DNA of 64,000 nucleotides from assembly GCA_963813895.1 (NCBI GenBank), contig CAWFAS010000003.1:543914-607913 (forward strand), in the 5' to 3' direction. The first letter of the stretch is position 1. Every line of letters starts with the position of its first letter. Position numbers and translations under genes: made by a program. This DNA comes from an uncultured Gammaproteobacteria bacterium (lineage in GTDB: Bacteria > Pseudomonadota > Gammaproteobacteria > JAURND01). Below the pieces are notes generated by a model. It saw only the letters and a program-made list of their open reading frames with translations, was not told the origin of the DNA and searched no databases. Shown piece by piece: positions 2,166-62,588 of the stretch.

Positions 2166-2242
2166 AGCTGGCATAGCTCAGTCGGTAGAGCAACTGATTT
2201 GTAATCAGTAGGTCCCGGGTTCGACTCCTGGTGCCAGCACCA
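2166..2242 (+). tRNA. tRNA-Thr (anticodon UGU)
   Basis: Cloverleaf readable by eye: acceptor GCTGGCA/TGCCAGC, D-arm GCTC-AGTCGGTA-GAGC, anticodon stem ACTGA/TCAGT with loop TTTGTAA (U33, anticodon TGT, A37), T-arm CCGGG/CCTGG with TTCGA, discriminator A, encoded CCA. The T-loop appears one base longer than canonical in my reading, so the count may be off by one. Confidence 0.85.
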
Positions 2243-2248
2243 GTTAAA

Positions 2249-3424
2249 TCAATGGGTTACAGCAACATCACCCCTCATTACACAAATCCCTGCGGGACTT
2301 TTGCGGGAGCTGTCATTTTTCATCAATGAATTAGCACCTGAATTAACCTCATAAAATCCTCTGATAACACTCAATGCCGGGCCATTCTGCTGCACACACA
2401 CCTTGTTAACCGCTTCAATCAGCTGAGACAATTCTGCTGCAGAATAGTGCGTCGTAATTCTTCCTGACTTATGACCCAGCAAGTCCTGACGATCCTCAAA
2501 ACTGACTCCCGCCGCACGCAATCTGCGACCAAAAGTGTGCTTGAGATCATGAACTCGCATATGCGGCAACTCTGCCCTAACCCGCGCCTTTCTCCACGCG
2601 GAGCGCAGCATCCTGTCTACTGGTTTACCTTTATAAGTAAATACATACTCAGGGTGTGTGCCACGCACTTCCTCAATCACGGATTTAGCAATACTGTTCA
2701 ATACTACTAAACGGTCATCACGATTCTTAACAACTTTACCGGGTATAAGAAATACTGAGCAATTAGGTATTTCAGGAACAGACACCTCCCACTCCCATTT
2801 AAGCAAACAGACTTCTCTATCACGGCAGCCTGTATTTACTGCAAATAAAGCCATATGCCGGAGGTGAAGCGGTAATTCCTGAAAAAACTGAGTCTGTTCT
2901 TCCCAATTAAGTGGAAAAGGCTTACGCGCATCAGGTTCTGGTAGCAACTTGATCTTAGGCGCAACCTGTAACCAGGTAAGTCCATGTTCATCCAGCCATA
3001 CACCAGCTGCCAAGTTGAGGATATGCCGAACCACTTGCAATCCATGGTTGATGGTACGCATTTTTACACCATCTTTTTTCCTGGCACTAATAAATGACTG
3101 CAAAGTCCCGATATGAACAGCCTCCAGAGTCAAATCACCTATATGCTCGTCCAACACTTTGAGATGACCTGCATCATCTCCAATGCTCGCTTTATGCTGA
3201 TTTTCCAGCAAAAATTTAGTAGCTGCCTCCCGGAATATCCGCTTGGGCCTGACTCCATAAACTTTAGCCTGCCTTATTTGCTCGATCCTTCGCGCAAGGT
3301 ACTGCTCCGCTTCTGCGAGGTCGAAAGTGCCAGTGCTCTCGCAAAGTCTGCGCCCGTGTATTTGTTTGTCGATGTGCCATAAGTCTTTACGTTTGTAGAG
3401 ACCTGGCGTTCTTTTGCGTCCCAT
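2249..3424 (-). CDS. int: P4-type tyrosine integrase (site-specific recombinase) of the genomic island
   Basis: 391 aa. C-terminal catalytic region shows R...HxxR...Y (HDLKHTFGRRL ... LLGHKSGRITTHYSAAEL). Lies 7 bp from the 3' end of tRNA-Thr, the classic island-integration arrangement. Confidence 0.9.
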   Translation of the reverse strand: MGRKRTPGLYKRKDLWHIDKQIHGRRLCESTGTFDLAEAEQYLARRIEQIRQAKVYGVRPKRIFREAATKFLLENQHKASIGDDAGHLKVLDEHIGDLTLEAVHIGTLQSFISARKKDGVKMRTINHGLQVVRHILNLAAGVWLDEHGLTWLQVAPKIKLLPEPDARKPFPLNWEEQTQFFQELPLHLRHMALFAVNTGCRDREVCLLKWEWEVSVPEIPNCSVFLIPGKVVKNRDDRLVVLNSIAKSVIEEVRGTHPEYVFTYKGKPVDRMLRSAWRKARVRAELPHMRVHDLKHTFGRRLRAAGVSFEDRQDLLGHKSGRITTHYSAAELSQLIEAVNKVCVQQNGPALSVIRGFYEVNSGANSLMKNDSSRKSPAGICVMRGDVAVTH

Positions 3425-6214: not shown

Positions 6215-6529
6215 TTATTTAATTTCACACCTATTATCAACTTTTTTGTTTCTTCGACTGTGGCGTTTTATAAATAATTCTGTAAAGTCTATCATTTCTT
6301 GACTAGGGCTATCATTGCCTAGTTCTTCTAACAATTGAATTGCAAGATAATTAAAGTATTGCGATTTTGACATATTAACTGGCCTAGGAGCATTTTGTTG
6401 CGCTACGCCATAGTATTTAATAAATTTTAGCTCTATATTGCGCTTATCCGCTATCTCGGGCATTAAATTTCTGGTTATTTCCGCTATATTTTTTTCCTTA
6501 GAGTTAATAAATAAATATGTCTCTGGCAT
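6215..6529 (-). CDS. small hypothetical protein, paralog of 6587-6907
   Basis: 104-aa ORF. Shares a ~40-aa C-terminal block with the neighbouring 106-aa ORF (..NMSKS.YF...AI..LE..GN..PSQ.EID..EL.IKR.S.R), i.e. a tandem duplication. Confidence 0.45.
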   Translation of the reverse strand: MPETYLFINSKEKNIAEITRNLMPEIADKRNIELKFIKYYGVAQQNAPRPVNMSKSQYFNYLAIQLLEELGNDSPSQEMIDFTELFIKRHSRRNKKVDNRCEIK

Positions 6530-6586
6530 CTAACGCAATACACTCATATAATTTTGCAAAGGCTTTAAGATAATTAATGATAAATT

Positions 6587-6907
6587 CTAGGCAGCTTTAG
6601 AAACCGCACTAATGCCCGATGCTGTCCGGCATGCCTGCATAAAAATAGGTTTAGTTGACTTTCGCAGGCTATAGCGCTTAATGTTCAATTCGACCATATC
6701 AATTTCAACTTGCGATGGAAACTTGTTGCCCATTTGTTCTAATATCGAAATAGCTGTACAAGTAAAATAAATTGATTTACTCATATTCTGCGGTTTTGGT
6801 TGCTGCTGTAGAATATTTAAGAAATGCTTCATTAATACACTTTCGAATTCCGCAGAATTTTTAGTTATTGCTCCAATTTGCTTGGCTTGTAGATTCAGAC
6901 TTTTCAT
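6587..6907 (-). CDS. small hypothetical protein, paralog of 6215-6529
   Basis: See 6215-6529. Confidence 0.45.
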   Translation of the reverse strand: MKSLNLQAKQIGAITKNSAEFESVLMKHFLNILQQQPKPQNMSKSIYFTCTAISILEQMGNKFPSQVEIDMVELNIKRYSLRKSTKPIFMQACRTASGISAVSKAA

Positions 6908-7105
6908 AATGACCTCTTAACTAATTTTGCTAATTTTCCAGGATTGTAAAACTCAAGAAACATCCTTACTTCTGGCTTAAGATAGCCTTAAGTGCTGATA
7001 TGATCGCTTATATTTGGTTAGAAAAAAATTAAGAGATTTGCCTGATTTTAAAACATTCTTTTTTTGCGCATAAAAAAATTAGGATTTTATGGAGAAAGGA
7101 AGCCC

Positions 7106-8539
7106 ATGATTAATAACAAAAAACAGCCGCGCGGCTTATATCTATTATCTTTTTTAGAGATATGGGATAGGTTTGGATATTATGGCATTCAGTCGATATT
7201 GGTTCTTTTTTTGACTAAAACCATGCTAATGGCTGATGATTCTGCTTATGCTCTGTATGGTATTTATACAGCATTGGCGTTCAGCACACCTTTATTAGGC
7301 GGATACATTGCAGACCGTTTTTTGGGGTACCGAAAGGCAGTAGCATATGGATTGACATTGCTAACTATTGGTAATGCCTTATTATTTATCGAAGGAGCGC
7401 ATACTTTTTATATAGGGTTGTCTCTGGTTATCTGTGGCATAGGTCTTTTTAAAGCCAATAATGCCACACTTCTCGGTTCTCTTTATGAAGCGGGCGATAT
7501 CAAAAAAGAAAAAGGTTTTACTTTGTTTTATATGGGAATGAATATAGGAGCTACATTAGGTCCTGTTGTTTTTGGATTAGCTGCACTTTATTTTAACTGG
7601 AAATATGGCTTCATGCTAAGCGCTTTGGCTAGCGGCTGCAGTCTTGTTTTGTTTGTATTCTTTCGTCAGCTATACAATTCCATTAAACCAAAGACATCTA
7701 AAAAATATCCATTACGATTCTGCGTGGCTTTAATTTGTGCTGTCTTGGGTATATCAGGCCTATTCTATTTTCCGGAGGTATTCAAAGATATACTCTGGCT
7801 CATAGGCATTGTTAGTTTAATTTACTTATTTACAGCTGCGGCAAAACACAGCAAATTTGAAAGAAAATGTATACTGCTGCTGGTTATTTTAGATCTGTTT
7901 GCAATTTTCTTTTTCGCTTGCCAGATACAGATAGGCAGCTCATTAACACTTTTTATAGATCGCCTGGTGAATAAACAGGTATTTGCCTGGACTATTCCCA
8001 CGGCAGCGTTCTCTGCCTTACAACCGATATGTGTTATTATTTCTGCTCCCCTACTGGAACCCATTTGGAATTCTTTGGGACGTTTATTACCTATTTATTC
8101 AGTTATATTACGAGTATTCTTAGGACTGGCATTAGGCGGTCTTAGCTTTGTTTTATTTGCATTATCCGCCGATAGTACTGCATGGCACACTACTATCAAT
8201 TATCCATTAATTGGTGTAGTGGCAGGGAATTTTGTTTTAGGCGCTGGAGAATTATGCATAGGTCCCATTATTATGGCAGCTGTATCTCGCTTTGCCCCTG
8301 AAAGATTACGAGGGCAGCTAATGGGATTCTGGTTTTTATCAATAGCTTTTGCCAGCTATCTGGGCAGTATACTTGCCCAATTTGCAGGGACAGCCAACAT
8401 CAAGTTGACCAACAATAGTACCATTTATTTTCACTCATTCTTAAAAACTAGCCTTGTTACGCTGAGCACCGCATTACTTCTGCTTATTTTCCTGGCTGTA
8501 GTGCGCCGTTTTCCGCTTGCTCAGATAACATCGAAATAA
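7106..8539 (+). CDS. POT/PTR2-family proton-dependent di/tripeptide transporter (MFS)
   Basis: POT signature FLEIWDRFGYYGIQSILVLFLT near the N-terminus and about 12-14 hydrophobic segments. A Shine-Dalgarno GGAGAAAGGAAG lies before the ATG at 7106 (ORF track gives 7064). Confidence 0.85.
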   Translation: MINNKKQPRGLYLLSFLEIWDRFGYYGIQSILVLFLTKTMLMADDSAYALYGIYTALAFSTPLLGGYIADRFLGYRKAVAYGLTLLTIGNALLFIEGAHTFYIGLSLVICGIGLFKANNATLLGSLYEAGDIKKEKGFTLFYMGMNIGATLGPVVFGLAALYFNWKYGFMLSALASGCSLVLFVFFRQLYNSIKPKTSKKYPLRFCVALICAVLGISGLFYFPEVFKDILWLIGIVSLIYLFTAAAKHSKFERKCILLLVILDLFAIFFFACQIQIGSSLTLFIDRLVNKQVFAWTIPTAAFSALQPICVIISAPLLEPIWNSLGRLLPIYSVILRVFLGLALGGLSFVLFALSADSTAWHTTINYPLIGVVAGNFVLGAGELCIGPIIMAAVSRFAPERLRGQLMGFWFLSIAFASYLGSILAQFAGTANIKLTNNSTIYFHSFLKTSLVTLSTALLLLIFLAVVRRFPLAQITSK

Positions 8540-10172
8540 AGCGATTTAATTCCGCTTCCCCCTGCTCAAAACCATGATAACTTGCATATTCATGGGTATT
8601 AATATTCAATTTACTCCATTCAGTCAAAAAAAGCGTCATTGCTTTTGGCTCTATATATAAGCGTTTTGCTTTTTGATAAAGACCAGTTAAACGTAAGGCA
8701 TCTAAAAACCACCAAATATCTTGACTAGATGGATAAGCACCAATGGCGTCAGCATTGTTATTGACCACCAAAAAATCAAATCGTATAGCTAAATCCATTA
8801 ATGCTAAGAATGCCTCCAGTGATGAATCATTTTCTTGCAGCCAAGTTTCCATAGCTTGAGTGCTTAATAATTTATGATTAAAACGAAATTTATTAGCATA
8901 ATGTGCGACTTCAATCTGGTCAGGGATCAAGCCAATTTGCGTGGCTTTTAGATCAATTCTATGAAAAAGAGTAGCAATGGTATACATAATATTATATTTA
9001 TCAATATCTGACTGTTTAAATGCGCTACATACGACAGATTTATTTTTTTCAGGAGAATACTGTAAGCCAATGCGTTTTTTGTAGTAGCTATAATAACCTG
9101 ATAATTGCATCAGATAGACCAAGTAATCCATGCTACTTTTTTCATTATCGCTATAATTTAAACAATTAAGTCGTGTGATAAATTGCTTTAGATCTTTATC
9201 AAAACAATCATTTTCCATTTGCCAGCTTTGCTGTGTGACAATATCTCCCAAACCAAATATACCCTCTGATTGATTTCTTTCTCTTTGAGCAATATTGTAG
9301 GTTATCGTCAATAGGTAGGCCAAACGTTGTGTAAGTAGGTAATTTTTTCCAAATAATCGCGCAATCAAAGCGACTTTTTCTTGAATAGGCAACCAATCCT
9401 TATAAACGATAAAAGGCTGGCACTGCATTGATCGTTGTAGAGTACGAAAATAAATAGTGCGCTCAAGATGGGGTTTATTTTGAGATGGAACAACAGCAGT
9501 ATTTGAATTTCTGATTAACTCCAATAATTCGGCTGCATCCAAAGCTTTTTGATCTATGTAACCTCCCTGAGCTAGCCAGGTTATTAAGCGTTTAATCTCT
9601 TCTTCCTTGAATTTATCAATGTTGCTTAAACAAATTTCTTTCAATGTACGTCGTTGATAAAATGTTTGTTTGGTTAGGTAAATTAAGGTATCTACTGTTT
9701 CCTGATTGACAATAGACTGAGCAAGTGCCGACTCCAGTGTCGCTCGTATATTTACCATAGGGTCTGTAATAACTTGGTAACCTGTAGCTTCAGTACCATG
9801 TAATATAGCCACTTCATCATCATCCGTAAGCTTGCCTGACGCATAATCATAAAAAACTTTTCCAACTCCCCGCATACCATAGCGCTCTAATTCCGCAGCT
9901 CTTAATGCACCCATGCTGGAAGCACCGAATACTTTAATACCTTGTTCCAACGCATATAATATTTCTTTATGCCAGACCGCTGCTGTTTTTTCAAACACGC
10001 CATCAATAATTAAGATGACCTCCGGTTTTAATCGCATGACACGCAAAATATCGCCACATTTTACTGGGGGCAAATAAAACGCTTCAGGCAATATCTCTTG
10101 AGCTTTAGTTAATGGTAACGATGGGCCTAGGAAGACGAATATATTGCAGCTAGGAGGATTTTTAGTATTCAC
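8484..10172 (-). CDS. TfuA-like domain protein with ~330-aa C-terminal extension of unknown function
   Basis: N-terminal ~230 aa match the TfuA core (IFVFLGPSLP...CGDILR...LIIDGVFEKTAAVWHKEILYALEQGIKVFGASSMGALRAAEL..YGM.GVG). It is immediately downstream of, and overlaps by 4 nt, a YcaO gene. Confidence 0.75.
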   Translation of the reverse strand: MNTKNPPSCNIFVFLGPSLPLTKAQEILPEAFYLPPVKCGDILRVMRLKPEVILIIDGVFEKTAAVWHKEILYALEQGIKVFGASSMGALRAAELERYGMRGVGKVFYDYASGKLTDDDEVAILHGTEATGYQVITDPMVNIRATLESALAQSIVNQETVDTLIYLTKQTFYQRRTLKEICLSNIDKFKEEEIKRLITWLAQGGYIDQKALDAAELLELIRNSNTAVVPSQNKPHLERTIYFRTLQRSMQCQPFIVYKDWLPIQEKVALIARLFGKNYLLTQRLAYLLTITYNIAQRERNQSEGIFGLGDIVTQQSWQMENDCFDKDLKQFITRLNCLNYSDNEKSSMDYLVYLMQLSGYYSYYKKRIGLQYSPEKNKSVVCSAFKQSDIDKYNIMYTIATLFHRIDLKATQIGLIPDQIEVAHYANKFRFNHKLLSTQAMETWLQENDSSLEAFLALMDLAIRFDFLVVNNNADAIGAYPSSQDIWWFLDALRLTGLYQKAKRLYIEPKAMTLFLTEWSKLNINTHEYASYHGFEQGEAELNRFISMLSEQAENGALQPGK

Positions 10173-11341
10173 ATTCTGGCCCCATTGAACTTTAAACCTG
10201 GAACCAATACTTGCACTACGGGGATGCCAATCTCCTTTTTAGTATGATTTACTAGCAACACATGTCGATAGTCCTTCCTATAGAGTAAGACGATTATTTG
10301 TTTTATATTTTCAGCAAAAGAAGATTGATATTCTGGCTGCACCCCTTTTGCATAGTCATGCATGCCATCTTTGAGCCAGTCTTCCTCCAATAGTTGATTA
10401 AGCATTCTTTGCCGCTGATAGTATTCAGGGAATACATCATCCCGGTTGCCGCTGATTAATGTTAATCTTGCCTGTGCTGCTTCGGTTAATGCCCGAGACA
10501 AGGCAACTTCTTTTGATAAATGAGCCCCAGTTCCTGTGAATAATCCCAAACTTCTAAATAAATTGATGTCGTAGATTGCACAATGAAATGCTGGAATTCC
10601 CAAGGGCGAAGCAATGTCCCAAATTTTTACCCGTAACCCCGCCAGATGCAAGTGCGTCAATAACTGAATGTTACTGTCCTGAATACTCGCCTGCGATAGT
10701 AGTTTTTTATTCTTGATTTCCTGATCCAGTTGTTGCCATTGATAAAGCGAATCACGCTCTATCAATTCATATAATGCATGACAGATCGCTTCTTCATGGG
10801 TATTGCCTGCCGCCAAACCGTTCGTACTGACAGATAAAAAACTATATTCAGGGTGAGGTTGGGTAGAGTCTAAACAGGTAAGAATATGAGGAATATAAAA
10901 ATTAGTATTGGTAGGTAAATCTAAAGCAGACACCCATCCCAACTCCAGAGTATCTAATTTTTTCTGAGTAAATTGAGTCCTATTAAAAAAATCAGGATTT
11001 ATCAGCTTGTGAATATTGCAAAGTGCAGCATAGGAGCCAGCAAGCGCAGGGCCGAGTGCATTTTCCATATGATAGGCTTCTAGTGCCTCCATAATTGCAG
11101 AAATTTCTGCTAACTGTTGGGACAAGCCTTTGCCTTGTGATACTGAAAGATGCTTCGCATTGGGGCGTATGCAGGTAGCAACAGCGATACCGACGGAATC
11201 GAGTCCTGTAATATTGGCTACTCGAGTAATACCCACATTGGGCAAAATTGGCTTTAATCGTTGTAGAGTCTTATCAGTGAAATCGGCACGAATTGTACCT
11301 TGCAGAGGATAATAATTGTCCAAGCACACCACATTAACCAC
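10169..11341 (-). CDS. YcaO-domain protein (ATP-dependent amide-backbone activating enzyme family)
   Basis: Hallmark YcaO motifs GITRVANITGLD..GI.V......RP ... SQGKG and SVSTNGLAAGNTHEEAICHALYELIERD. Confidence 0.85.
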   Translation of the reverse strand: MVNVVCLDNYYPLQGTIRADFTDKTLQRLKPILPNVGITRVANITGLDSVGIAVATCIRPNAKHLSVSQGKGLSQQLAEISAIMEALEAYHMENALGPALAGSYAALCNIHKLINPDFFNRTQFTQKKLDTLELGWVSALDLPTNTNFYIPHILTCLDSTQPHPEYSFLSVSTNGLAAGNTHEEAICHALYELIERDSLYQWQQLDQEIKNKKLLSQASIQDSNIQLLTHLHLAGLRVKIWDIASPLGIPAFHCAIYDINLFRSLGLFTGTGAHLSKEVALSRALTEAAQARLTLISGNRDDVFPEYYQRQRMLNQLLEEDWLKDGMHDYAKGVQPEYQSSFAENIKQIIVLLYRKDYRHVLLVNHTKKEIGIPVVQVLVPGLKFNGARM

Positions 11342-11606
11342 CCACCAGGGGTAAAAACAAGGTTATAACATCATCGCTTTCGAGAAAAAGTTCTTGTTGG
11401 GATGAAGGATGTATTTGCTTGCCATTTAAATAGATGCTTATAAAAGGGCGTATATTGTGCTTGTCATCAAAAAGATACTGCTCTATTTCAGGAAAATCCT
11501 TAATTAAAGCAGCTCTAACATCTTTTAAGTGATCACAATTAACAATAATCTTAGATTGATGGTTAGTAAACTTAGTTAATACATCTGGTATAAGAATTGT
11601 CGGCAT
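11334..11606 (-). CDS. ThiS/MoaD-like ubiquitin-fold sulfur-carrier protein ending in Gly-Gly
   Basis: 90-aa ORF with C-terminus ...ITLFLPLVGG-stop. Beta-grasp-like length. Overlaps the YcaO start by 8 nt. Confidence 0.65.
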   Translation of the reverse strand: MPTILIPDVLTKFTNHQSKIIVNCDHLKDVRAALIKDFPEIEQYLFDDKHNIRPFISIYLNGKQIHPSSQQELFLESDDVITLFLPLVGG

Positions 11607-11765
11607 AAGTGAGGCAATATTCTGTTGATAAACCTAAAATTAAATCAGGTCTAACAATTGGAACTAAGCGGGCGATACCGAGTAATTTGTTAAAAAAATC
11701 CTTTGATGACCTTGTCATTTCACAAGATGGCTGCCTTGCCGAACAAAAACTCGTTACAAGCCAAC

Positions 11766-11972
11766 TTAATTTAATAAGCTAATACCTGATTCGCATTCTA
11801 CATTCGAAAATAGTGGCCCTGAGAGACCTAACAAACTTTCATAAAAAATCATTATTTGCACGTTATCAAGTTCTTGAGCAGAAATACCGCTCTTTGGTTC
11901 AAAGTCATTAATCATGGTTAATCCCGGATAATTTATATTATTTAGTGAAACACTAAACGTTTTAGTTCTCAC
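11766..11972 (-). CDS. 68-aa ORF between the ThiS-like gene and the 443-aa gene; candidate small peptide (speculative)
   Basis: Same strand, inside the operon and fills the gap. No homology recognised. Could equally be non-coding. Confidence 0.2.
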   Translation of the reverse strand: MRTKTFSVSLNNINYPGLTMINDFEPKSGISAQELDNVQIMIFYESLLGLSGPLFSNVECESGISLLN

Positions 11973-12004
11973 AACCCTGAGAGTAAATTAATCCTTTGAT
12001 CTTA

Positions 12005-13336
12005 TTATACATCAGATTTTCTTGAGATTCGAATACAACCTCTTAAAAATGGACTCGATGCGCAGAATGACTTCTCAGGATATTTCTTTAATTCAGAGAC
12101 TAGCATGGAATCACCCATTGTGATTTCAGAAGAATTTAATATCAGTTCTCTGCTATCCATTTCAGAATGAAAATAAGAATAATCAATATTTTTTGCCCAT
12201 TTATAAATAGGAGTATTTACCAATTTTAACTTGTCCTCCAATAAATAAGTAGATATTCCATTCATTACATGTTTGATTTCTCGTAAGTCTTCGAGCTTAC
12301 TAGTGATTTTTTTTGATTTTGGTGAAAATACTACCAAGGTCGGTACTGCTAGAGAGTAATAGCAGGGTCTTTGGGGATCTTCTGCAGAAAAGTATCCAGG
12401 ATGTAACATCGTGGGAGAGTATTTTAAGCTATAGATATTATTAAAAACAGTTTGTAGTGCTCTGATAGGACCTGCACTCTCGTCGTGGGCCACTATAAAA
12501 GCTGGGTAAGTACCAGTTCCAATAGAATATAAATGCTTTACAGTGTCAGTAAGATATGGATTAGGTTTCAGATTTTTGGCTTCTAACGCGCAGGAAAAAG
12601 CAAAATCAAGCACGACCTGATTACGTAAATATGCGGTTTCGTGCCAAGCAGTTTCCATAAGATAGGATCGAAGAAGTCGCCATTTGGGGTCTTTCTGATT
12701 TTCTAACCATTTGCCTGAAAAAAATAAAACTTCTACTGACCACGGTTCAGGGAAAGTAGCGCATTGTGCCAATTCCTTAAAGACTTCCCATTCATCAAGA
12801 AAATCTTTGGGCACAGAAGAAAATAGGTTGAATTCACGTTTTAGCTTTTTGTAATAGGTGACATCCGAAATTTTAGGTAGCATTATAAGTGAACGTGCGC
12901 CAGCGGTAATGCTCCAGATATGGCCGAGATGCGCCGACTGCATAATTTCTAATACAGTCCAAAGTGCAAAGATTTTGCCAGTTCGCATTAAACTGAATGG
13001 CACTACACGCCTGCCTTCCAACAAAAATAGTTCAATTGAATTATTAAGTACTACTCCCATTGGCATAGTCTGCGCATAGGTTAATGATTCTCTTATTTCA
13101 GGGTCAAGGTCAGGATTATCAATGGATAATAATTGCTGATTATCTGTGGGGAGATGAAGCACACCCTTATCTAAAATGGTAGCCCCAAAGGGATAGCGAG
13201 CCTTAATTAAAAGGAAATCATTTCCCGGATCAATTTTATCTATTTCGTTAGCAAGCTGGGGATTAGCCTTAACTACATCGTCTCTTGCCTGCTTCCAGGT
13301 CAATTTTTCAATTGCAGGTCTATTGTCTTTCCCCAT
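12005..13336 (-). CDS. hypothetical protein (443 aa), first gene of the YcaO/TfuA operon
   Basis: Long uninterrupted ORF, co-directional and tightly spaced with the downstream genes. No family recognised by eye. Confidence 0.6.
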   Translation of the reverse strand: MGKDNRPAIEKLTWKQARDDVVKANPQLANEIDKIDPGNDFLLIKARYPFGATILDKGVLHLPTDNQQLLSIDNPDLDPEIRESLTYAQTMPMGVVLNNSIELFLLEGRRVVPFSLMRTGKIFALWTVLEIMQSAHLGHIWSITAGARSLIMLPKISDVTYYKKLKREFNLFSSVPKDFLDEWEVFKELAQCATFPEPWSVEVLFFSGKWLENQKDPKWRLLRSYLMETAWHETAYLRNQVVLDFAFSCALEAKNLKPNPYLTDTVKHLYSIGTGTYPAFIVAHDESAGPIRALQTVFNNIYSLKYSPTMLHPGYFSAEDPQRPCYYSLAVPTLVVFSPKSKKITSKLEDLREIKHVMNGISTYLLEDKLKLVNTPIYKWAKNIDYSYFHSEMDSRELILNSSEITMGDSMLVSELKKYPEKSFCASSPFLRGCIRISRKSDV

Positions 13337-13756
13337 AATAATTTTCCCTTTGATGAATGAACATTTTGTTTCATCGTAATATGTATTTTAAACCGATTTC
13401 CTTTTTGCACCTGGTCTAGCATACACATTTCCAATAATTAAATTACCAGTTTTATGCAAACATTAGTTCTTATTGCTGATAATACGATTAAGTATAGTAG
13501 ATGGGAATTACTAAGTGAGCCACATCAGGGGATTACCGAGGTTTTTAATCTCTTTAACCATAAATCTTAAACTTATTGGATATACCCAAATTCTTTCCAT
13601 CATGATTTTTAAGTTGATTATTTTCAAAAAAAGATCGTAAGCCACCAATATTCACTTTGCTTTCATTGTACTAATCATAGCAACATAAACTGGAGGTTTC
13701 CATGAGTAACTTCATCGTACCTGATCGCTAGTTTTGCTTGAAAGATTGGCCAGAAA

Positions 13757-13972
13757 ATGGCACAGGAATGCGGGTGCTATGCTTGCTATAGACTTTCAGA
13801 TAATTTCTTTGGAACTCCCCATCTTGAAAAAATGGGGAGCGAGGATTTTTTCAAAAATCATTATCTGAAAAACCAGTTGGGCAAAAAATATCAAAAAAAC
13901 TCCAAAGAATGTACAATTAAAAATTCTTATGCCTATTTTGAGAAAAACCATTCTTTTGATATTTATTTATGA
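13757..13972 (+). CDS. 71-aa Cys-rich small ORF translationally coupled (ATGA overlap) to the E1/rhodanese gene
   Basis: MAQECGCYACYRLSD... Its stop overlaps the start codon of the following gene. Confidence 0.3.
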   Translation: MAQECGCYACYRLSDNFFGTPHLEKMGSEDFFKNHYLKNQLGKKYQKNSKECTIKNSYAYFEKNHSFDIYL

Positions 13973-15087
13973 AGCTAACCCCAACTGAAATTCTACGCTA
14001 TTCGCGCCATTTCCCGATCATTAATCAGACTGGCCAAGAGCAACTAAAAAACGCAGCTGTGCTATGTGTGGGCGCGGGTGGTTTAGGTTCTCCTGCTCTG
14101 TTATATCTGGCAGCAGCAGGTATAGGAAAACTCGGGATCATAGATCATGATCGCGTAGAAATCAGCAACCTACAACGACAGATATTATTTACCAATGCTG
14201 ATATCGGGCAGCTCAAAGTTGATTGCGCGCGACAACACCTTGTTGCACAAAATCCCGATATCGAGATCAAAACTTATCCGCTGCGCTTGATTAGCAGCAA
14301 TGCGCAACAGCTAGTTGCTAATTACGATATCGTACTGGATGGCAGCGATAACTATGAAACACGCTATCTGATTAACGATGTGTGTCACAGTGCCGGTAAA
14401 CCAATGGTCTCCGCGAGTATTTTTCAGTTTCAAGGTCAAATCAGTGTCTTCAATGTCGATGATGGTCCGTGTTATCGCTGCTTATATCGCGCTCCACCGC
14501 CCGCTGAGTTAATGCCGGATTGCGCTGCCGGCGGTGTATTAGGAGTGTTACCTGGCATTATGGGCACAATCCAGGCAACAGAAACCATTAAACTAATCCT
14601 CAAAAAGGGGCAATCCTTGGGTGGGCGCTTATTGATCTTTGATGCTCTCTGCATGAGTTTTAATGAGTATACTATTCATTCTGATCCGCAGTGTCCGCTT
14701 TGCCAGTATAGCCAGCTATCTGATGATCTATTCACTCAACCTTCGCGGGAATGTAATTCTGATGGAACGGTACCTGAAATCCAGCCTTCAGAGTTGGCCA
14801 GTTGGTTACGGGATTCAGCAGCATCAGTGCAACTATTGGATGTACGTGAACCCTATGAGCGCGCAATTTGTCACATTGGTGGAGCATTTCTACCACTTTC
14901 CCAATACAATCCTTCCCACTTAAAACTTAATAAGCAAATACCAACTGTTGTTTATTGCAAGCATGGTAATCGGAGTCAAATAGCCGCCAAATTGTTGCAG
15001 GCAGAAGGTTACCAACGGGTTTTCACTCTAAAAGGTGGAATTATAGCTTGGGCGGAACAGATTGACTCATCCATTGTAATATATTGA
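13969..15087 (+). CDS. MoeZ/MoeB-like E1 adenylyltransferase with C-terminal rhodanese domain (sulfur-carrier activating enzyme)
   Basis: ThiF/MoeB nucleotide-binding motif VLCVGAGGLGSPALLYLAAAGIGKLGIIDHDRVEISNLQRQ. CxxC pairs (CYRC, CPLC). C-terminal rhodanese-like block (VVYCKHGNRSQIAAKLL..GY..VF.L.GGI..W). Confidence 0.85.
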   Translation: MKLTPTEILRYSRHFPIINQTGQEQLKNAAVLCVGAGGLGSPALLYLAAAGIGKLGIIDHDRVEISNLQRQILFTNADIGQLKVDCARQHLVAQNPDIEIKTYPLRLISSNAQQLVANYDIVLDGSDNYETRYLINDVCHSAGKPMVSASIFQFQGQISVFNVDDGPCYRCLYRAPPPAELMPDCAAGGVLGVLPGIMGTIQATETIKLILKKGQSLGGRLLIFDALCMSFNEYTIHSDPQCPLCQYSQLSDDLFTQPSRECNSDGTVPEIQPSELASWLRDSAASVQLLDVREPYERAICHIGGAFLPLSQYNPSHLKLNKQIPTVVYCKHGNRSQIAAKLLQAEGYQRVFTLKGGIIAWAEQIDSSIVIY

Positions 15088-43717: not shown

Positions 43718-44416
43718 TTATGCAGTAGTTTTCGCAGCACCTAACATGCTATCTAGTAAATATACAAATTTTATTTCTTTATTTAATATGGCACTGGGTA
43801 TCGTGCCCATTTTTTCTTTAGCCTGCTGGGCCAGATCATTGTTTTCGCGAATATCCTGACGTGTGACTTGCATTTTCCAGCCTAATGGCAAAGAAAATAG
43901 ATTGCGTATGCTGGATAGAATACGTAATGGCAATTGTTCAGGCTCCAGGAGTTGACCAACATGTCGCAAGGTATAAGCTTGTCGTGATACATAGTCCAAT
44001 TCAGGTAATAACGACGCGCCCATATAGCTAAATGGAATGGCAAATTTTAATGCTAATTGCATAGGTTCTGGATTTTCAAATACTTTGATATTAAAACCAC
44101 GCAATTGAGACAGACGCTGTTGACAATACTGCTCCAGCTCCTGAATTTCACTGCGGATGTTATGGATTTTTTCATCAATTTTCATAAAAAACCAATCAGC
44201 ATAGGGGTCGTCGGCGCGATGGCCTTTCCAGAGATCACGTACCTTGAGGGCATATTGCCATAATCCCAGTTTTCCATTACCCCAATTGCCTTGTAATAAA
44301 GTTTGCGCCAATTTGGTATGTAATGTTAAATCGATTTCGCCCTCCAGATACACTGGAGAACGTATGGGTGGTTTAGGGGTATAACTATCGTTATTGATTA
44401 TGGGTGAAGTCGTCAT
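43718..44416 (-). CDS. hypothetical ICE core protein (232 aa)
   Basis: ORF in the conserved block upstream of traD. Not assigned. Confidence 0.5.
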   Translation of the reverse strand: MTTSPIINNDSYTPKPPIRSPVYLEGEIDLTLHTKLAQTLLQGNWGNGKLGLWQYALKVRDLWKGHRADDPYADWFFMKIDEKIHNIRSEIQELEQYCQQRLSQLRGFNIKVFENPEPMQLALKFAIPFSYMGASLLPELDYVSRQAYTLRHVGQLLEPEQLPLRILSSIRNLFSLPLGWKMQVTRQDIRENNDLAQQAKEKMGTIPSAILNKEIKFVYLLDSMLGAAKTTA

Positions 44417-44427
44417 ATGTATTTCTC

Positions 44428-45552
44428 CTATAGCGGGATGTCGGTTGCGAAGCTGGATTGTAGAGGGAGTGATTTTGCTTGTGGTGGTAAATAGCTAACG
44501 TCCAAAATAATTCCTTCGATTACGAGGCGTTTTTCAAAACGGGCTGAACGATAGCGGTGAATTGTGTTAGTATTTTTTTTGATCAAATAACTATCGAGCA
44601 GTTGCAGTAAATTATCTTGTGGTGCGTATTGGGGATAAAGTTGGAGAAATTCTGCAATACGCTTTATGCCTATGAACAAACCGGCGGGGATGCGTAACAA
44701 TAGAGTATTTTCCACATTAAAATCCGTTGCAGTACATTGGTGATCTATCCATTCATTCAAAATATTTAGGAGCTGCGAAGGATTAGTTTTTTCCTCTTGT
44801 TCATCAGTGGTTGCATGGGGGCTCTGATGCTTTTGTATTATTGGATTGGCATCGTCTGGAGGATCTGTGTCCAAAGGGTAATTAATTTTTTCAGCAGCCT
44901 CACGGATAATTTCTGTCAAAACAGTAGGTGCTGTCGGATTTTCTACTAAAGTTGTCCACCAGACTTGAAAGGCAGTGGGGCAACCAGTTAGCCAACGCAA
45001 TGCAATTGATGGGACTATCCGACCAATGAGGGCAGCGCGGAATACCCATTCGTTGACGATGACGGGGTGAGATTTATTTTCAAGAGAATAAAATGTCGCT
45101 GCTTCGTATAAATTGCCGGCTAATGGATGCCAAAGACCCAATTTATTGCCGCCATTTTTAAATAGCGTGATAGTGCGATCGTGTTGTAGGTGATTTATTT
45201 GCGTGAATAGGCAAGCGGTAAATAATGCGTAGGTCCACAAGGGCTCTTGTTCGGCAATAGTTTCACTTTCTGATTGTAGGGGTAACATTTTGCCCCGCCG
45301 CAATTTTAATGCTGTGATTGCTAAATCCAGTTGCCGCTGTAAGAGGCTATAGGGTTTTGATTGATGATCAAATGACATCGCTTGGCAAAACGCCATAAAG
45401 CGATTTAGGGTTGTGAGATATAATTCCTGATAAATATCGAGCGGTGCACTGACGAGCTGTTTTAACTGAATAAGATGGGGCTGTAATGCTGGGAGCCTGG
45501 CAATTTCTTCCCCAGTCAGGCAGGGCAATAATTCATTGGACTGTTTTTCCAT
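44428..45552 (-). CDS. hypothetical ICE core protein (374 aa)
   Basis: ORF immediately upstream of, and co-directional with, traD. Confidence 0.5.
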   Translation of the reverse strand: MEKQSNELLPCLTGEEIARLPALQPHLIQLKQLVSAPLDIYQELYLTTLNRFMAFCQAMSFDHQSKPYSLLQRQLDLAITALKLRRGKMLPLQSESETIAEQEPLWTYALFTACLFTQINHLQHDRTITLFKNGGNKLGLWHPLAGNLYEAATFYSLENKSHPVIVNEWVFRAALIGRIVPSIALRWLTGCPTAFQVWWTTLVENPTAPTVLTEIIREAAEKINYPLDTDPPDDANPIIQKHQSPHATTDEQEEKTNPSQLLNILNEWIDHQCTATDFNVENTLLLRIPAGLFIGIKRIAEFLQLYPQYAPQDNLLQLLDSYLIKKNTNTIHRYRSARFEKRLVIEGIILDVSYLPPQAKSLPLQSSFATDIPL

Positions 45553-45573
45553 GGTGCTGCTCCGAATAATGGG

Positions 45574-47604: not shown

Positions 47605-47972
47605 TAGTGTCCCTCTAACAGGTGCAGGAGTATTAAAAACAGGTTTTCACAGACGACTAACTCAAATATAATCAGCCAGAGCGTGATTTTTATTCGTTGC
47701 TTTAACCAAAACATGGTTTTTTCAGGTTTCCAATAATGATTTTTAGCCCACCAGCGTATAAAGTGAGGCCAGGCACAAAATAGGACTATTATTATCAGCC
47801 AGCGCATGGCGGTGAAAAATAATTTATTTTGTGAAATAATTCGACTCACGCTCTGCAAGTGGTTGGGGTGAGCGAAATTAAGCCAGACAAATGGCGTCAT
47901 GATAAGAAGCATGAATGCAAGCCATAGTATCAGCTGCAGAAAGGTTTTTTTTAAATGTTTTAATAAAAGCAT
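47604..47972 (-). CDS. small polytopic membrane protein
   Basis: 122 aa, 3-4 hydrophobic helices. Stop overlaps the traD start (ATGA). Confidence 0.45.
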   Translation of the reverse strand: MLLLKHLKKTFLQLILWLAFMLLIMTPFVWLNFAHPNHLQSVSRIISQNKLFFTAMRWLIIIVLFCAWPHFIRWWAKNHYWKPEKTMFWLKQRIKITLWLIIFELVVCENLFLILLHLLEGH

Positions 47973-48196
47973 TTTTTCCTCAAAAAGGATTTAGTTATGA
48001 AAAATAAAGTTATTAGAAAAAATCGTTCACCGGCTTTAAAAGCCGTACTATTTTTAATAAAAATCCCATTACTTATCCTCGGAGCAACTGCTACAGCTCA
48101 TTCAGATGAAGAAGAGCAATCAAATGTAGTAGAGGATTTATATTCACAAAAACCAAGTCTTTTTGATCCTCGATCTCCTAAACATTGAGTGAAATT

Positions 48197-57448: not shown

Positions 57449-57458
57449 TTGCTATCTC

Positions 57459-58809: not shown

Positions 58810-58827
58810 ATTTTTCTCCTGTAAAAA

Positions 58828-59070
58828 TTAACTGATAAACACTAACGTCACGGCGATCGCAACGATAAACATAATCCGTAACAACTGGCGGTGTGCATCA
58901 AACATATCCACGTCATGATGGCGAAAATGGTGGATTTTGCTGTAAACACAAGCAGCTGCCCAAATAAAAACCAAAACCAATAAAATACTGCGCACCGTTA
59001 AACTGAGTTCACTGGCTGATACACCGGCAGCTACTTGTAATGCCTCAATTGCGCTGGACGTTGCAGTCAT
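58828..59070 (-). CDS. 80-aa 2-TM membrane protein
   Basis: Two hydrophobic helices. Confidence 0.35.
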   Translation of the reverse strand: MTATSSAIEALQVAAGVSASELSLTVRSILLVLVFIWAAACVYSKIHHFRHHDVDMFDAHRQLLRIMFIVAIAVTLVFIS

Positions 59071-61631: not shown

Positions 61632-61637
61632 ACGACC

Positions 61638-62585: not shown

Positions 62586-62588
62586 GAT

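What the first reader, a model, noticed from the sequence alone, without database searches (positions are those of the whole stretch)
8484..15087. Complete YcaO / TfuA / ThiS-GG / E1-rhodanese sulfur-insertion cassette carried as ICE cargo, with no identified substrate
Two divergent operons lie within 6.6 kb. The minus-strand operon (promoter side at 13336) encodes a 443-aa unknown protein, a 68-aa ORF, a ThiS/MoaD-like protein ending Gly-Gly, a YcaO enzyme and a TfuA-domain protein with an extra 330-aa C-terminal domain. The plus-strand operon (from 13757) encodes a 71-aa Cys-rich ORF coupled by an ATGA overlap to a MoeZ-like E1 + rhodanese. From established biochemistry: an E1 plus rhodanese thiocarboxylates the GG tail of ThiS-like carriers; TfuA hydrolyses ThiS-COSH to deliver sulfide; YcaO ATP-activates a peptide amide for thioamidation. 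All four functions are present together here, but no known substrate (McrA, a thiopeptide or thioviridamide precursor) is nearby. The 443-aa protein, the TfuA C-terminal extension and the two small ORFs are unassigned and are the candidate substrate or specificity components. Finding this on a mobile island in a Legionella-like genome is unusual.
Basis: partly seen in the sequence, partly recalled or inferred. Interest (0 to 1): 0.85.

Follow-up and report, generated by a model that had tools for sequence, protein, structure and literature searches.

The report
Mobile thioamide-peptide gene cluster
A conjugative island in a Legionella-like bacterium carries a complete enzyme set for swapping oxygen for sulfur in a peptide backbone, together with a likely 49-residue substrate peptide, a peptide transporter and a large, completely uncharacterised partner protein family; the enzyme chemistry is a known kind, but the product and the partner's role are unknown.

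Summary
All ORFs lie at the stated coordinates, and the TfuA, YcaO, ThiS-like (C-terminal GG) and E1+rhodanese assignments hold at E = 1e-5 to 1e-80. The ICE setting is real: tRNA-Thr, an integrase and a PFL_4669/ICEclc-type transfer backbone.

The interpretation needs correcting in four ways.
- A candidate substrate exists. The '68-aa ORF' is really a 49-aa gene (11766-11915, minus strand). Its C-terminal core (E-x-L-L-G-L-S-x-P-L-x-S-x-I-E) recurs in the same slot in related clusters. A sister cluster carries a curated Nif11-type RiPP precursor in that slot.
- The cluster is larger than reported. A convergent POT peptide permease and a ~100-aa gene family travel with it.
- The 443-aa protein belongs to a family of at least 1,597 sequence clusters in Legionellales-type bacteria. 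It has no Pfam model or solved relative, and it recurs next to peptide transporters with or without YcaO.
- It is not unusual for Legionella. A sister cluster with an ATP-grasp enzyme sits on about 29 Legionella plasmids and was drawn, without a function, in 2011.

The 71-aa ORF is not conserved in any fetched locus.

Verdict: an uncharacterised variant of YcaO-TfuA thioamidated-peptide clusters, of moderate interest.

The parts
6215..6907 (-). Two paralogous ~105-aa ORFs (6215-6529 and 6587-6907) of unknown function, divergent from the POT gene. They are a recurrent accessory of the cluster.
   Evidence: The two are 42% identical to each other. Homologues lie beside the clusters in L007 (E = 6e-17), L096 and L077. 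No Pfam hit.
7064..8539 (+). POT/PTR2 oligopeptide:H+ symporter, convergent with TfuA and overlapping its 3' end by 56 nt.
   Evidence: PF00854 6.2e-47; TIGR00924 247 bits against a cutoff of 130. The same convergent, overlapping arrangement occurs in L001 and L004. POT is present in 7 of 8 genome-derived sister clusters.
8484..10172 (-). Long TfuA: an N-terminal TfuA domain (~1-222) plus a ~340-aa helical C-terminal extension.
   Evidence: PF07812 1.4e-46; NF033432 220.6 bits; PDB 6xp8 5.6e-32. The extension is conserved across the clade, with total lengths of 406-610 aa. It was found only fused to TfuA. The AF2 model is poor, pLDDT 52.
10169..11341 (-). YcaO, the ATP-dependent backbone amide-activating enzyme, of the thioamide-type subfamily.
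   Evidence: PF02624 9.7e-66. Best NCBIfam match is TIGR03266; best PDB match is MJ1094. The ExxE and ExxER motifs are invariant across 9 clade members.
11334..11606 (-). ThiS/MoaD/SAMP-like sulfur-carrier protein ending in Gly-Gly.
   Evidence: PF02597 24.4 bits; SAMP1 5.7e-10. GG-terminated orthologues occur in L007, L009, L012, L014, L053, L077, L090, L091, L094, L096, pLLO and pPC1000_1.
11766..11915 (-). Candidate 49-aa precursor peptide MINDFEPKSGISAQELDNVQIMIFYESLLGLSGPLFSNVECESGISLLN.
   Evidence: A syntenic homologue in L007 scores E = 4.8e-9 with the single sequence as query. A second core copy in L007 was found independently (E = 2e-5 to 2e-4). The best background hit among 60,032 small ORFs is E = 0.38. 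The same core occurs in the slot ORFs of L009, L011, L012 and L092. In the 27-codon core versus L007 there are 9 synonymous and 10 nonsynonymous changes, while the flanking DNA shows no similarity.
12005..13336 (-). 443-aa protein ('P443'), member of a large uncharacterised Legionellales family. First gene of the minus-strand operon.
13337..13968 (.). Divergent intergenic/control region. It contains the non-conserved 71-aa ORF (13757-13972, plus strand) and an 8-bp hairpin with a T-run at about 13816-13852.
   Evidence: No homologue of ORF71 in any locus. No Shine-Dalgarno sequence before the E1 ATG. No Rfam hit. Fold z = -2.2. Promoter-like sites on the minus strand at 13479-13702.
13969..15087 (+). 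MoeZ/Uba4-like E1 adenylyltransferase fused to a rhodanese domain (active-site loop CKHGNRS).
   Evidence: PF00899 2.2e-80; PF00581 1.3e-15; PDB Uba4 3e-53. Below the MoeB/MoeZ equivalog cutoffs. In sister clusters it sits between ThiS and YcaO.
2167..3424 (.). Left end of the island: tRNA-Thr (2167-2242, plus strand) and a tyrosine integrase (2249-3424, minus strand).
   Evidence: ARAGORN and Rfam; PF00589. Chromosomal YraN and LpoA genes lie to the left.
43718..64000 (-). ICE conjugation backbone of the PFL_4669/ICEclc type. It runs off the end of the window.
   Evidence: TIGR03761, TIGR03755, TIGR03752, TIGR03746 and TIGR03759 are all above their curated cutoffs. TraI_2, TraD, TraG_N, TraU and TraC are present.

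Best explanation
This is a mobile biosynthetic cluster for a ribosomal peptide with a thioamide in its backbone.

Inferred from homology, nothing measured:
- The E1-rhodanese adenylates the Gly-Gly tail of the 90-aa ThiS-like carrier and converts it to a thiocarboxylate.
- The TfuA domain hydrolyses that thiocarboxylate to deliver sulfide next to YcaO.
- YcaO uses ATP to activate one backbone amide and replaces O with S.

The substrate is most likely the 49-aa peptide encoded between the 443-aa gene and ThiS, and the site probably lies in its conserved C-terminal core (ESLLGLSGPLFSNVECES). No Cys, Ser or Thr nucleophile is conserved there, which fits thioamidation rather than azoline formation.

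The ~340-aa helical extension on TfuA is specific to this YcaO clade. I infer that it docks the substrate or the carrier; this was not tested.

The 443-aa protein and the POT permease form a separate two-gene module that has joined the thioamidation module repeatedly. My best guess, at low confidence, is that P443 is an enzyme that trims or binds the modified peptide and POT moves the resulting short product, or gives immunity to it.

The cluster travels on an ICE here and on conjugative plasmids in Legionella. That fits a competition or host-interaction factor rather than housekeeping.
For: - Enzyme identities.
- Translational coupling of ThiS, YcaO and TfuA: coordinates.
- Clade definition: YcaOs at 40% identity or more to this one have a long TfuA, and most have ThiS and/or an E1 co-encoded. 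YcaOs below 40% are plain YcaO plus short-TfuA pairs.
- Peptide: a conserved syntenic small ORF. The HMM finds an independent second copy in L007 and nothing elsewhere among 60,032 small ORFs.
- Clade member L098 has a curated Nif11-leader RiPP precursor (TIGR03798, 41.6 bits against a cutoff of 32.3) directly upstream of its YcaO. So this enzyme clade does sit beside ribosomal precursors.
- Clade members L091, L093 and L098 lack P443 within reach, so P443 is not the obligate substrate.
- P443 is linked to POT in 16 loci without YcaO and in most of the 12-13 YcaO loci.
- ICE and plasmid carriage.
- Sulfur-relay biochemistry as stated in PMC8939145 and PMC13063428 (citing Liu et al. 2021). ThiF/ThiS with YcaO/TfuA in thioamitide clusters: PMC9576775.
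Against: - No chemistry was measured, so a thioamide product is inferred only.
- Peptide homology is statistically solid only for window vs L007. L009, L011, L012 and L092 rest on synteny plus a short motif: leave-out E-values were 1.8-9.7 against 60,032 ORFs.
- No matching peptide was recognised in L014, L035, L053 or L077.
- The conserved part is the C-terminal half while the N-terminal half varies. That is the reverse of the usual conserved-leader, variable-core pattern.
- The YcaO and TfuA fall below the only equivalog cutoffs available.
Confidence: 0.6

Rival explanations
1. P443 is a BGC-borne second copy of the product's cellular target, giving self-immunity, and POT exports the product. 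The thioamidated peptide would then be a narrow-spectrum, possibly Trojan-horse, antibiotic aimed at other Legionellales that carry only the 'housekeeping' P443. This rival concerns the role of P443. It is compatible with the 49-aa peptide being the YcaO substrate.
For: - P443 has a large 'solo' clade that looks vertically inherited, including chromosomal copies in L. longbeachae, L. anisa, L. bozemanae and Aquicella. The extra paralogues are the ones found in clusters.
- One MAG has both a cluster copy (L007) and an 87%-identical solo copy (L008).
- Cluster copies keep the invariant polar core, so they are functional proteins. They differ from the solo clade at many subfamily-specific positions.
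- P443+POT pairs without YcaO could be orphan immunity modules.
- Experimentally supported precedent: resistant aaRS copies in tiarin clusters, including one from Legionella birminghamensis, and uptake of the antibiotic through a peptide transporter (bioRxiv 10.64898/2025.12.02.691738).
Against: - The function of P443 is unknown, so 'target' cannot be evaluated.
- The subfamily-specific substitutions are shared with POT-linked copies that have no cluster, as ordinary paralogue divergence would give.
- L007 and L008 are each other's closest relatives, which looks like a recent duplication rather than a housekeeping copy plus an acquired copy.
- Several clade members have no P443 at all.
Confidence: 0.2
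2. P443 itself is the thioamidation substrate. This would be a protein-modifying YcaO system like McrA thioglycine in archaea or uL16 in E. coli, and the small ORF would be irrelevant.
For: - YcaO enzymes do thioamidate folded proteins: McrA (PMC5589413) and uL16 (PMC13063428).
- The YcaO and TfuA score best against the McrA-type families.
- P443 is the first gene of the operon, is a well-folded globular protein (pLDDT 94), and co-occurs with this YcaO clade in 12-13 loci.
Against: - Clade members L091, L093 and L098 have no P443 within 8 kb, and L098 has a Nif11 RiPP precursor instead.
- Most P443 genes (solo and POT-linked) have no YcaO nearby.
- A conserved small ORF occupies the precursor slot.
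- The rich conserved polar core of P443 looks more like an active site.
Confidence: 0.1
3. The substrate is a short non-ribosomal or imported di/tripeptide (or another small amide). POT brings it in or takes it out, and P443 makes or binds it. The plasmid sister clusters would build the peptide with their ATP-grasp ligase.
For: - POT family carriers move di/tripeptides (family annotation).
- POT is a conserved member of the cluster.
- The Legionella plasmid versions add an ATP-grasp 'glutathione synthetase'-like ligase.
- P443 is repeatedly adjacent to POT or MFS transporters.
Against: - All characterised YcaO substrates I know of are ribosomal peptides or proteins (own knowledge, plus the papers cited above).
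- The window cluster has no ligase.
- A conserved precursor-like ORF is present, and pPC1000_1 has an annotated 42-aa ORF in the same slot.
- A graspetide survey reports ATP-grasp enzymes co-occurring with YcaO/TfuA in clusters it treats as RiPP loci (PMC8939145).
Confidence: 0.08
4. This is an ordinary sulfur-carrier locus for molybdopterin, thiamin or tRNA thiolation that happens to lie next to YcaO/TfuA.
For: The E1 scores highly against MoeB/MoeZ models and passes the subfamily-level PRK05690 cutoff (280.6 vs 266). The carrier resembles MoaD/SAMP.
Against: - The E1 is below all MoeB/MoeZ/ThiF equivalog cutoffs.
- No moaE, thiG or other pathway genes are nearby.
- ThiS is translationally coupled to YcaO-TfuA.
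- The E1 and ThiS co-migrate with YcaO/TfuA in sister loci.
- The locus is on an ICE and is patchily distributed.
Confidence: 0.02

Closest known systems
Archaeal McrA thioglycine system (YcaO + TfuA; NCBIfam TIGR03266 / NF033432)
   Same: It gives the best-scoring family models for both enzymes, and the nearest solved structures are MJ1094 (YcaO) and 6xp8 (TfuA). YcaO and TfuA are adjacent, and the presumed ATP-dependent O-to-S exchange with sulfide from a ThiS-type carrier is the same (PMC5589413).
   Different: Scores are below the equivalog cutoffs. There is no McrA in a bacterium. TfuA carries a 340-aa extension. The E1, the carrier, a small precursor-like ORF, P443 and a POT permease are co-encoded, and the cluster is on a mobile element.
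Bacterial thioamidated RiPP clusters (thioamitides such as thioviridamide, thiovarsolins, thioamidated thiopeptides; antiSMASH 'TfuA-related')
   Same: A YcaO-TfuA pair, sometimes with ThiF/ThiS homologues (PMC9576775), next to a short precursor gene. More than 1,000 uncharacterised proteobacterial examples are known (PMC8120280).
   Different: None of the thioamitide tailoring genes are present. The precursor family is unrelated. The long TfuA, P443 and POT are not described in the papers read here. The conserved part of the peptide is C-terminal.
Legionella conjugative-plasmid ycaO/tfu cluster (e.g. pLLO of L. longbeachae NSW150; pPC1000_1)
   Same: POT permease, a P443-family gene (23-25% identity), ThiS ending in GG, ThiF with a weak rhodanese match, YcaO and TfuA, lying next to transfer genes. 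pPC1000_1 has a 42-aa ORF in the precursor slot. Drawn as 'unknown function' in PMC3218107, Fig. 2.
   Different: The plasmid version adds an ATP-grasp ligase. Its TfuA is only ~345 aa. YcaO is 27-30% identical. The small ORF is not recognisably homologous. It is itself uncharacterised.
E. coli YcaO thioamidation of ribosomal protein uL16
   Same: A proteobacterial YcaO making a backbone thioamide (PMC13063428).
   Different: That YcaO is ~590 aa, TfuA-independent, chromosomal, and recognises a folded protein. Here the YcaO_for_S12 model matches only weakly (36.6 bits against a cutoff of 700).
Tiarins / trifolitoxin clusters
   Same: RiPP clusters, some with YcaO and ThiF-like genes, also present in Legionella. 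The logic of peptide-transporter uptake and a resistant second copy of the target is a useful model for POT and P443 (bioRxiv 10.64898/2025.12.02.691738).
   Different: The defining TfxB/TfxC dehydrogenase pair and the conserved-Gln precursor motif are absent here, so this is not a tiarin cluster.

Membership tests
YcaO-TfuA thioamide-forming system (general) | YcaO domain with ATP/Mg-binding acidic motifs | tested here: met
   PF02624 9.7e-66 over 324 of 325 profile positions. E85/E88 and E192/E195-R196 are invariant in 9 clade members. Mapping these to the known ATP-binding residues is from memory.
YcaO-TfuA thioamide-forming system (general) | TfuA protein encoded adjacent to YcaO | tested here: met
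   PF07812 1.4e-46 over the full profile. 4-nt overlap with YcaO. PDB 6xp8 5.6e-32.
YcaO-TfuA thioamide-forming system (general) | Sulfur supplied by a thiocarboxylated ThiS-like carrier made by an E1 (plus rhodanese) | tested here: met
   The genes are present: a GG-terminated ThiS-like protein and a ThiF+Rhodanese protein with a CKHGNRS loop. Their activity could not be tested.
YcaO-TfuA thioamide-forming system (general) | A backbone thioamide in the product | not testable with these tools
   Needs mass spectrometry (+15.98 Da) on the expressed peptide or protein.
RiPP cluster | A genetically encoded precursor peptide next to the modifying enzymes | tested here: inconclusive
   The conserved 49-aa syntenic ORF is significant versus L007 (4.8e-9), a second L007 copy was found independently, and other members are supported by synteny and motif only. 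It matches no curated precursor family. Clade member L098 does have a curated Nif11 precursor.
McrA-glycine thioamidation proteins (TIGR03266 / NF033432 equivalogs) | Score at or above the curated equivalog cutoff | tested here: not met
   210.6 vs 365 for YcaO; 220.6 vs 235.2 for TfuA.
Thioamitides (thioviridamide-like) | Characteristic tailoring genes besides YcaO/TfuA. As I recall the thioviridamide-type clusters (own knowledge, not checked here), these include a decarboxylase for AviMeCys, a phosphotransferase/lyase pair and methyltransferases. | tested here: not met
   Every ORF of 7064-15087 was scanned. Only POT, TfuA, YcaO, ThiS and ThiF-Rhodanese matched Pfam or NCBIfam families; P443 and the two small ORFs gave no hit. 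None matched any other family.
Tiarins | TfxB/TfxC FMN-dehydrogenase pair and a precursor with the conserved Gln motif (definition from bioRxiv 10.64898/2025.12.02.691738) | tested here: not met
   No nitroreductase-like or FMN dehydrogenase domain in the cluster. The peptide core has no conserved Gln.
MoeB/MoeZ molybdopterin-synthase adenylyltransferase (housekeeping) | Equivalog-level score and Moco pathway context | tested here: not met
   405 vs 449 (PRK08762) and 363 vs 647 (MoeZ). Only the subfamily model PRK05690 passes, 280.6 vs 266. No moa genes nearby.
Integrating conjugative element (PFL_4669 / ICEclc type) | Integrase at a tRNA gene plus the family-specific conjugation proteins | tested here: met
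   tRNA-Thr and integrase. TIGR03761, TIGR03755, TIGR03752, TIGR03746 and TIGR03759 are above their cutoffs. TraC, TraU, TraG, TraD and TraI_2 are present. The right-hand attachment repeat was not seen in the window.

The most novel reading that the evidence does not exclude
P443 defines a new enzyme (or target) family specific to intracellular Gammaproteobacteria that works hand in hand with peptide transporters. In this cluster it would convert a thioamidated 49-aa precursor into a short sulfur-containing peptide that POT carriers traffic. That would be a new class of small RiPP-derived metabolite, either an antimetabolite or a Trojan-horse toxin aimed at other Legionellales, or a host-directed signal, spread by ICEs and plasmids. 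The long TfuA extension would be a new substrate- or carrier-docking domain.
Probability: 0.2. Interest if true: 0.8.

Novelty: new variant of a known kind. Interest (0 to 1): 0.55.

Why it matters
No YcaO-TfuA thioamidated peptide from Legionellales turned up in the papers searched here. The only characterised ones named in the papers read are from Actinobacteria, apart from a single heterologously produced thioamidated peptide from a Desulforegula cluster.

This work provides a concrete, testable substrate (a 49-aa peptide with a defined conserved core). It also provides a minimal gene set for heterologous expression, and a clade definition: YcaO at 40% identity or more, plus a long TfuA.

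It also exposes a large 'dark' protein family with these properties:
- at least 1,597 sequence clusters;
- a high-confidence predicted structure with no solved relative;
- confinement to Legionella, Coxiella, Francisella and Aquicella-type bacteria;
- genetic linkage to peptide permeases.

These bacteria live on amino acids and peptides inside host cells (general knowledge), so a peptide-linked family of this size is worth characterising in its own right.

Because the clusters ride on ICEs and conjugative plasmids, the product is a plausible competition or fitness factor for environmental Legionella populations.

Tried and rejected
- **Structure of the TfuA extension.** The word-index searches gave only 5 usable homologues. 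AlphaFold gave pLDDT 52, so all that can be said is 'all-helical'. I did not run a fold search on it because the result would be meaningless.
- **Retrieving the window's own genome or the 95%-identical relative with a truncated TfuA (P0122).** Neither is on record. The host organism therefore remains unnamed, and 'Legionella-like' rests only on the taxonomy of homologues.
- **ORF71 as a gene.** No homologue anywhere. As an RNA element it has no Rfam hit. It stays unresolved.
- **TfuA extension as a fused ATP-grasp.** I tested whether it is homologous to the plasmid ATP-grasp enzymes. There is no BLAST similarity, and it is helical rather than alpha/beta. Rejected.
- **Island DNA against plasmids.** The ICE backbone has no nucleotide match in PLSDB. 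The 6.6-kb cluster itself gave only two ~100-170-nt matches inside the TfuA gene.
- **attR.** No repeat of the tRNA 3' end lies in the window.
- **Tiarin membership.** Rejected because the defining genes are absent.

Full report

Yes. The ORF list reproduces every coordinate in the finding.

Domain matches (Pfam):

| Protein | Match | E-value |
|---|---|---|
| 562-aa protein | TfuA, residues 57-176 | 1.4e-46 |
| 390-aa protein | YcaO, full length | 9.7e-66 |
| 90-aa protein ending LVGG | ThiS | 4.2e-5 (just above the gathering score) |
| 372-aa protein | ThiF plus Rhodanese | 2.2e-80 and 1.3e-15 |

NCBIfam puts the YcaO and TfuA nearest to the McrA-glycine thioamidation families, but below their equivalog cutoffs (210.6 vs 365; 220.6 vs 235.2). 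The E1 is nearest to MoeB/MoeZ, again below the equivalog cutoffs.

The nearest solved structures are:
- TfuA: 6xp8.
- YcaO: the Methanocaldococcus YcaO MJ1094, ahead of the azoline-forming TruD and LynD.
- E1: Uba4 and MoeB.

ThiS, YcaO and TfuA overlap by 8 and 4 nt, so they are translationally coupled. The rhodanese active-site loop (CKHGNRS) and the E1 GxGxxG and CxxC motifs are visible in the sequence. Four functionally linked families at these E-values within 6.6 kb is not chance.

**2. The mobile-element setting**

A tRNA-Thr (2167-2242) is followed by a tyrosine integrase (2249-3424). Chromosomal YraN and LpoA genes lie to the left. From 43.7 kb to the end of the window runs a conjugation backbone. 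Five of its proteins pass the curated cutoffs for 'integrating conjugative element' families (TIGR03761, TIGR03755, TIGR03752, TIGR03746, TIGR03759). TraI_2, TraD, TraG, TraU and TraC are also present.

No repeat of the tRNA end occurs in the window, so the far boundary lies beyond 64 kb. The cluster sits between the integrase and the transfer genes, among other cargo. 'ICE cargo' is therefore supported.

**3. The cluster is a conserved unit, and it is bigger than described**

The 443-aa protein (P443) has 145 homologues in the word-index search. An exhaustive HMMER search finds 1,597 representatives at 50% identity, 890 of them below 1e-30, and nearly all of the top 150 are 430-470 aa. None has a Pfam domain or a name.

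A genome scan returned 80 loci. By their record titles, almost all are from Legionellales, Coxiellaceae, Francisellaceae, Aquicella or unnamed Gammaproteobacteria MAGs.

I searched those loci with tblastn, using the window's proteins as queries. The full set, meaning P443, YcaO, a long TfuA and usually POT, an E1 and ThiS, occurs in eight distinct genomes: L007, L009, L011, L012, L014, L035, L053 and L077. The commonest order is P443, small ORF, ThiS, E1-Rhd, YcaO, long TfuA, then a convergent POT permease. The window is a rearranged version with the E1 moved to the divergent side. L007 (75% P443 identity) has no E1 in the locus at all.

The POT permease overlaps the TfuA 3' end convergently in the window, in L001 and in L004, so it belongs to the unit. 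Two ~105-aa paralogues next to POT (6215-6907) also recur beside the clusters in L007, L077 and L096.

**4. Seen from the YcaO side**

I scanned metagenomes with an alignment of the nine YcaOs.
- Relatives at 40% identity or more carry a long TfuA (406-610 aa; the extension is detectable in all but L094, and two contigs end before it could be seen). ThiS and/or an E1-rhodanese is co-encoded in 11 of the 16 distinct loci, and P443 is often present.
- The ~70 relatives below 40% are plain YcaO plus short-TfuA pairs with none of the extras.

The long TfuA is therefore the hallmark of a discrete clade. The extension has conserved motifs: DQK..DA; C.PF....LP..EK; FR...L....WL..N.L....F; WWF.DAL.L.G.Y. 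It was found only fused to TfuA. Its structure could not be predicted reliably (pLDDT 52).

Some clade members (L091, next to the ATP-synthase operon; L093; L098) have no P443 or POT within 8 kb. P443 and POT therefore form an add-on module, not part of the catalytic core.

**5. A candidate substrate**

Its orthologue in L007 begins with the same MIN... sequence, with a stop codon one codon upstream.

The C-terminal halves align as follows:

| Locus | Core |
|---|---|
| window | ESLLGLSGPLFSNVECES |
| L007 | ESFLGLSGPLIANIERDS |
| L009 | EALISLAGPMCSTIELGS |
| L011 | EVLLGLSPAVFASNEIES |
| L012 | ENLLGVSPPM--NVKLES |
| L092 | LDILSIMGPLLTVIEKAT |

Statistical support:
- An HMM of five of these peptides, run against all 60,032 small ORFs of the ~170 fetched loci, hits only the syntenic ORFs. 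It also hits one ORF not used to build it, a second tandem core copy in L007 (LLGLSSPLIATIEHDSE, E = 1.9e-5). The best background hit is E = 0.38.
- Leave-out tests are more sobering. Window vs L007 is significant alone (4.8e-9), and the extra L007 copy is still recovered (1.7e-4). L009, L011 and L012 are only top-ranked (E = 1.8-9.7), so they rest on position plus motif.
- In the 27-codon core, window and L007 differ at 19 codons, 9 of them synonymously. The surrounding intergenic DNA has no detectable similarity. This is what a translated, constrained peptide looks like.

No Cys, Ser or Thr is conserved in the core in a way that azoline formation would need, which fits thioamidation.

Independent support for a ribosomal substrate comes from clade member L098. 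The ORF directly upstream of its YcaO is a curated Nif11-leader RiPP precursor ending ...LSDAELSAVSGG followed by a core (TIGR03798, 41.6 bits vs 32.3; PF07862, 4.9e-9).

Other clade members have short acidic ORFs in the same slot with no recognisable similarity: L096, L099, L053, L035, and the annotated 42-aa ORF of plasmid pPC1000_1.

**6. What is P443?**

The family has a rich invariant polar set: E102, R148-S149, N255-Y261, D264, H268, Y302, Y326-Y327-S328, H390, D409 and R432-G433-C434. Cluster-linked copies keep it. That looks like an active or ligand-binding site, not a passive substrate.

In an NJ tree of 89 copies, a large 'solo' clade contains the chromosomal copies of several Legionella species and Aquicella and looks vertically inherited. 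The other clades mix copies adjacent to a POT permease only (16 loci) with copies inside YcaO clusters (12-13 loci). Several loci hold two copies. One MAG has a cluster copy (L007) and an 87%-identical solo copy (L008).

So P443 is a general Legionellales protein functionally tied to peptide transport, and it has been recruited to thioamidation clusters repeatedly. Three roles remain open: a peptide-processing or binding enzyme, a resistant second copy of the product's target, or a protein substrate. The substrate role is the weakest, for the reasons given in sections 4 and 5.

**7. Not new to Legionella**

tblastn of P443 against PLSDB finds 23-30%-identical genes on 29 Legionella plasmids and one Francisella plasmid, 27 of them conjugative.

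- On pLLO of L. longbeachae NSW150 the gene lies in the order: POT, wHTH regulator, P443-like, ATP-grasp ('glutathione synthetase'), ThiS (...ISGG), ThiF (weak rhodanese), YcaO, TfuA (344 aa). This block is immediately next to traL.
- pPC1000_1 has the same set with an annotated 42-aa ORF before ThiS, next to ICE-family genes.

These are the 'ycaO' and 'tfu' genes of unknown function drawn on Legionella conjugative elements in 2011 (PMC3218107, Fig. 2).

Other literature context:
- A plasmid survey notes that 34% of Legionellales plasmids carry BGCs (PMC10434180).
- A global survey counted more than 1,000 uncharacterised TfuA clusters in Proteobacteria (PMC8120280).
- ThiF/ThiS homologues alongside YcaO/TfuA are already recognised (PMC9576775).
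- An ATP-grasp/YcaO/TfuA association was noted in PMC8939145.

I found no paper that characterises any of these Legionella clusters, P443, or the long TfuA.

The tiarin preprint (bioRxiv 10.64898/2025.12.02.691738) describes a different Legionella RiPP cluster type, defined by TfxB/TfxC. Its defining genes are absent here. It does offer tested precedents for uptake through a peptide transporter and for immunity by a second target copy.

**8. The 71-aa ORF**

It has no homologue in any fetched locus. In most sister clusters that encode an E1, the gene before it is ThiS. The E1 ATG has no Shine-Dalgarno sequence. The ORF contains a perfect 8-bp hairpin followed by a T-run. Rfam finds nothing, and the region folds slightly better than shuffles (z = -2.2). 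It may be a coupling ORF or an attenuator-like leader. I leave it unresolved and do not count it as a component.

**9. Mechanism, with the status of each step**

- Shown by sequence: the presence, integrity and linkage of the genes; the clade structure; the conserved small ORF; the mobile context.
- Inferred from established family biochemistry: E1/rhodanese makes ThiS-COSH, TfuA hydrolyses it, and YcaO-ATP thioamidates an amide.
- Inferred from comparative genomics: the 49-aa peptide is the substrate (about 0.6), and the P443+POT module acts on or protects against a peptide product.
- Speculative: the function of the TfuA extension, the size and activity of the product, and its biological role.

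**10. Verdict**

This is a real, intact and mobile YcaO-TfuA thioamidation cluster, and a new variant of a known kind. The 'no substrate' and 'unusual for Legionella' points are revised.

The parts worth following up are the candidate precursor family, the long-TfuA clade, and the large dark P443 family linked to peptide permeases.

Interest: moderate (0.55).

Noticed in passing
window 35210-37441 (-) and 38917-40122 (+): Defence-type cargo on the same ICE. One is a PifA-like KAP-family NTPase (PADLOC PifA 5.4e-66). The other is a TIR-domain protein matching candidate system PDC-S35 (3e-72) and Pfam CAP12/Pycsar-effector TIR.
   Followed up: partly
window 16360-18302 (-), 24631-24707 (-), 30143-30279 (-): A group II intron with an intact RT/maturase/HNH ORF lies immediately next to the cluster's flanking response regulator. 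Two further group II intron RNA fragments lie elsewhere in the cargo.
   Followed up: no
window 25606-28979: Three consecutive ORFs (25680-26915, 26890-27894 and 27866-28894), the first confirmed as a tyrosine recombinase and the other two not scanned, are bracketed by 23-nt direct repeats (91% identical). This looks like a nested 'recombinase trio' element inside the ICE.
   Followed up: no
window 13757-13972 (+), hairpin ~13816-13852: The 71-aa ORF upstream of the E1 is not conserved in any fetched locus. It contains a perfect 8-bp hairpin plus a T-run, and the E1 start has no Shine-Dalgarno sequence. It is possibly an attenuator-like leader rather than a gene. No Rfam match.
   Followed up: partly
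window 11600-11775 (-): The 160-nt spacer between the candidate precursor gene and ThiS folds into hairpins, one followed by a U-run (z = -2.25). This could be a partial terminator that raises the precursor-to-enzyme transcript ratio, a device I recall from some other RiPP operons (own knowledge).
   Followed up: no
protein P0122 (another genome, contig of 656,644 bp; not retrievable): A copy 91-95% identical to the long TfuA, but lacking the N-terminal TfuA domain and with an altered C-terminus. This suggests the cluster is decaying in a close relative.
   Followed up: partly
window 5516-6172 (-) and 15322-15966 (-): Two orphan LuxR-type response regulators, 30% identical to each other, flank the cluster. 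The pLLO plasmid cluster has a short LuxR-type HTH gene next to its P443-like gene. These are possibly cluster regulators.
   Followed up: no
L007 11466-11570 (+): A second, tandem copy of the peptide core (LLGLSSPLIATIEHDSE) lies upstream of the main precursor gene. It has no ATG in its open frame, so it is either a degenerate duplicate or uses an alternative start.
   Followed up: partly
L089 (L. pneumophila LPE509 plasmid) 7992-11610; L003 (Aquicella siphonis) 10001-12123: P443-family genes without YcaO also sit next to MFS transporters, and next to a SAM methyltransferase on the LPE509 plasmid. This extends the transporter link beyond POT.
   Followed up: no
window 33406-33481 and 43599-43674: A 76-nt direct repeat (80% identity) lies 10 kb apart, bracketing the defence-gene region just upstream of the ICE transfer genes.
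   Followed up: no
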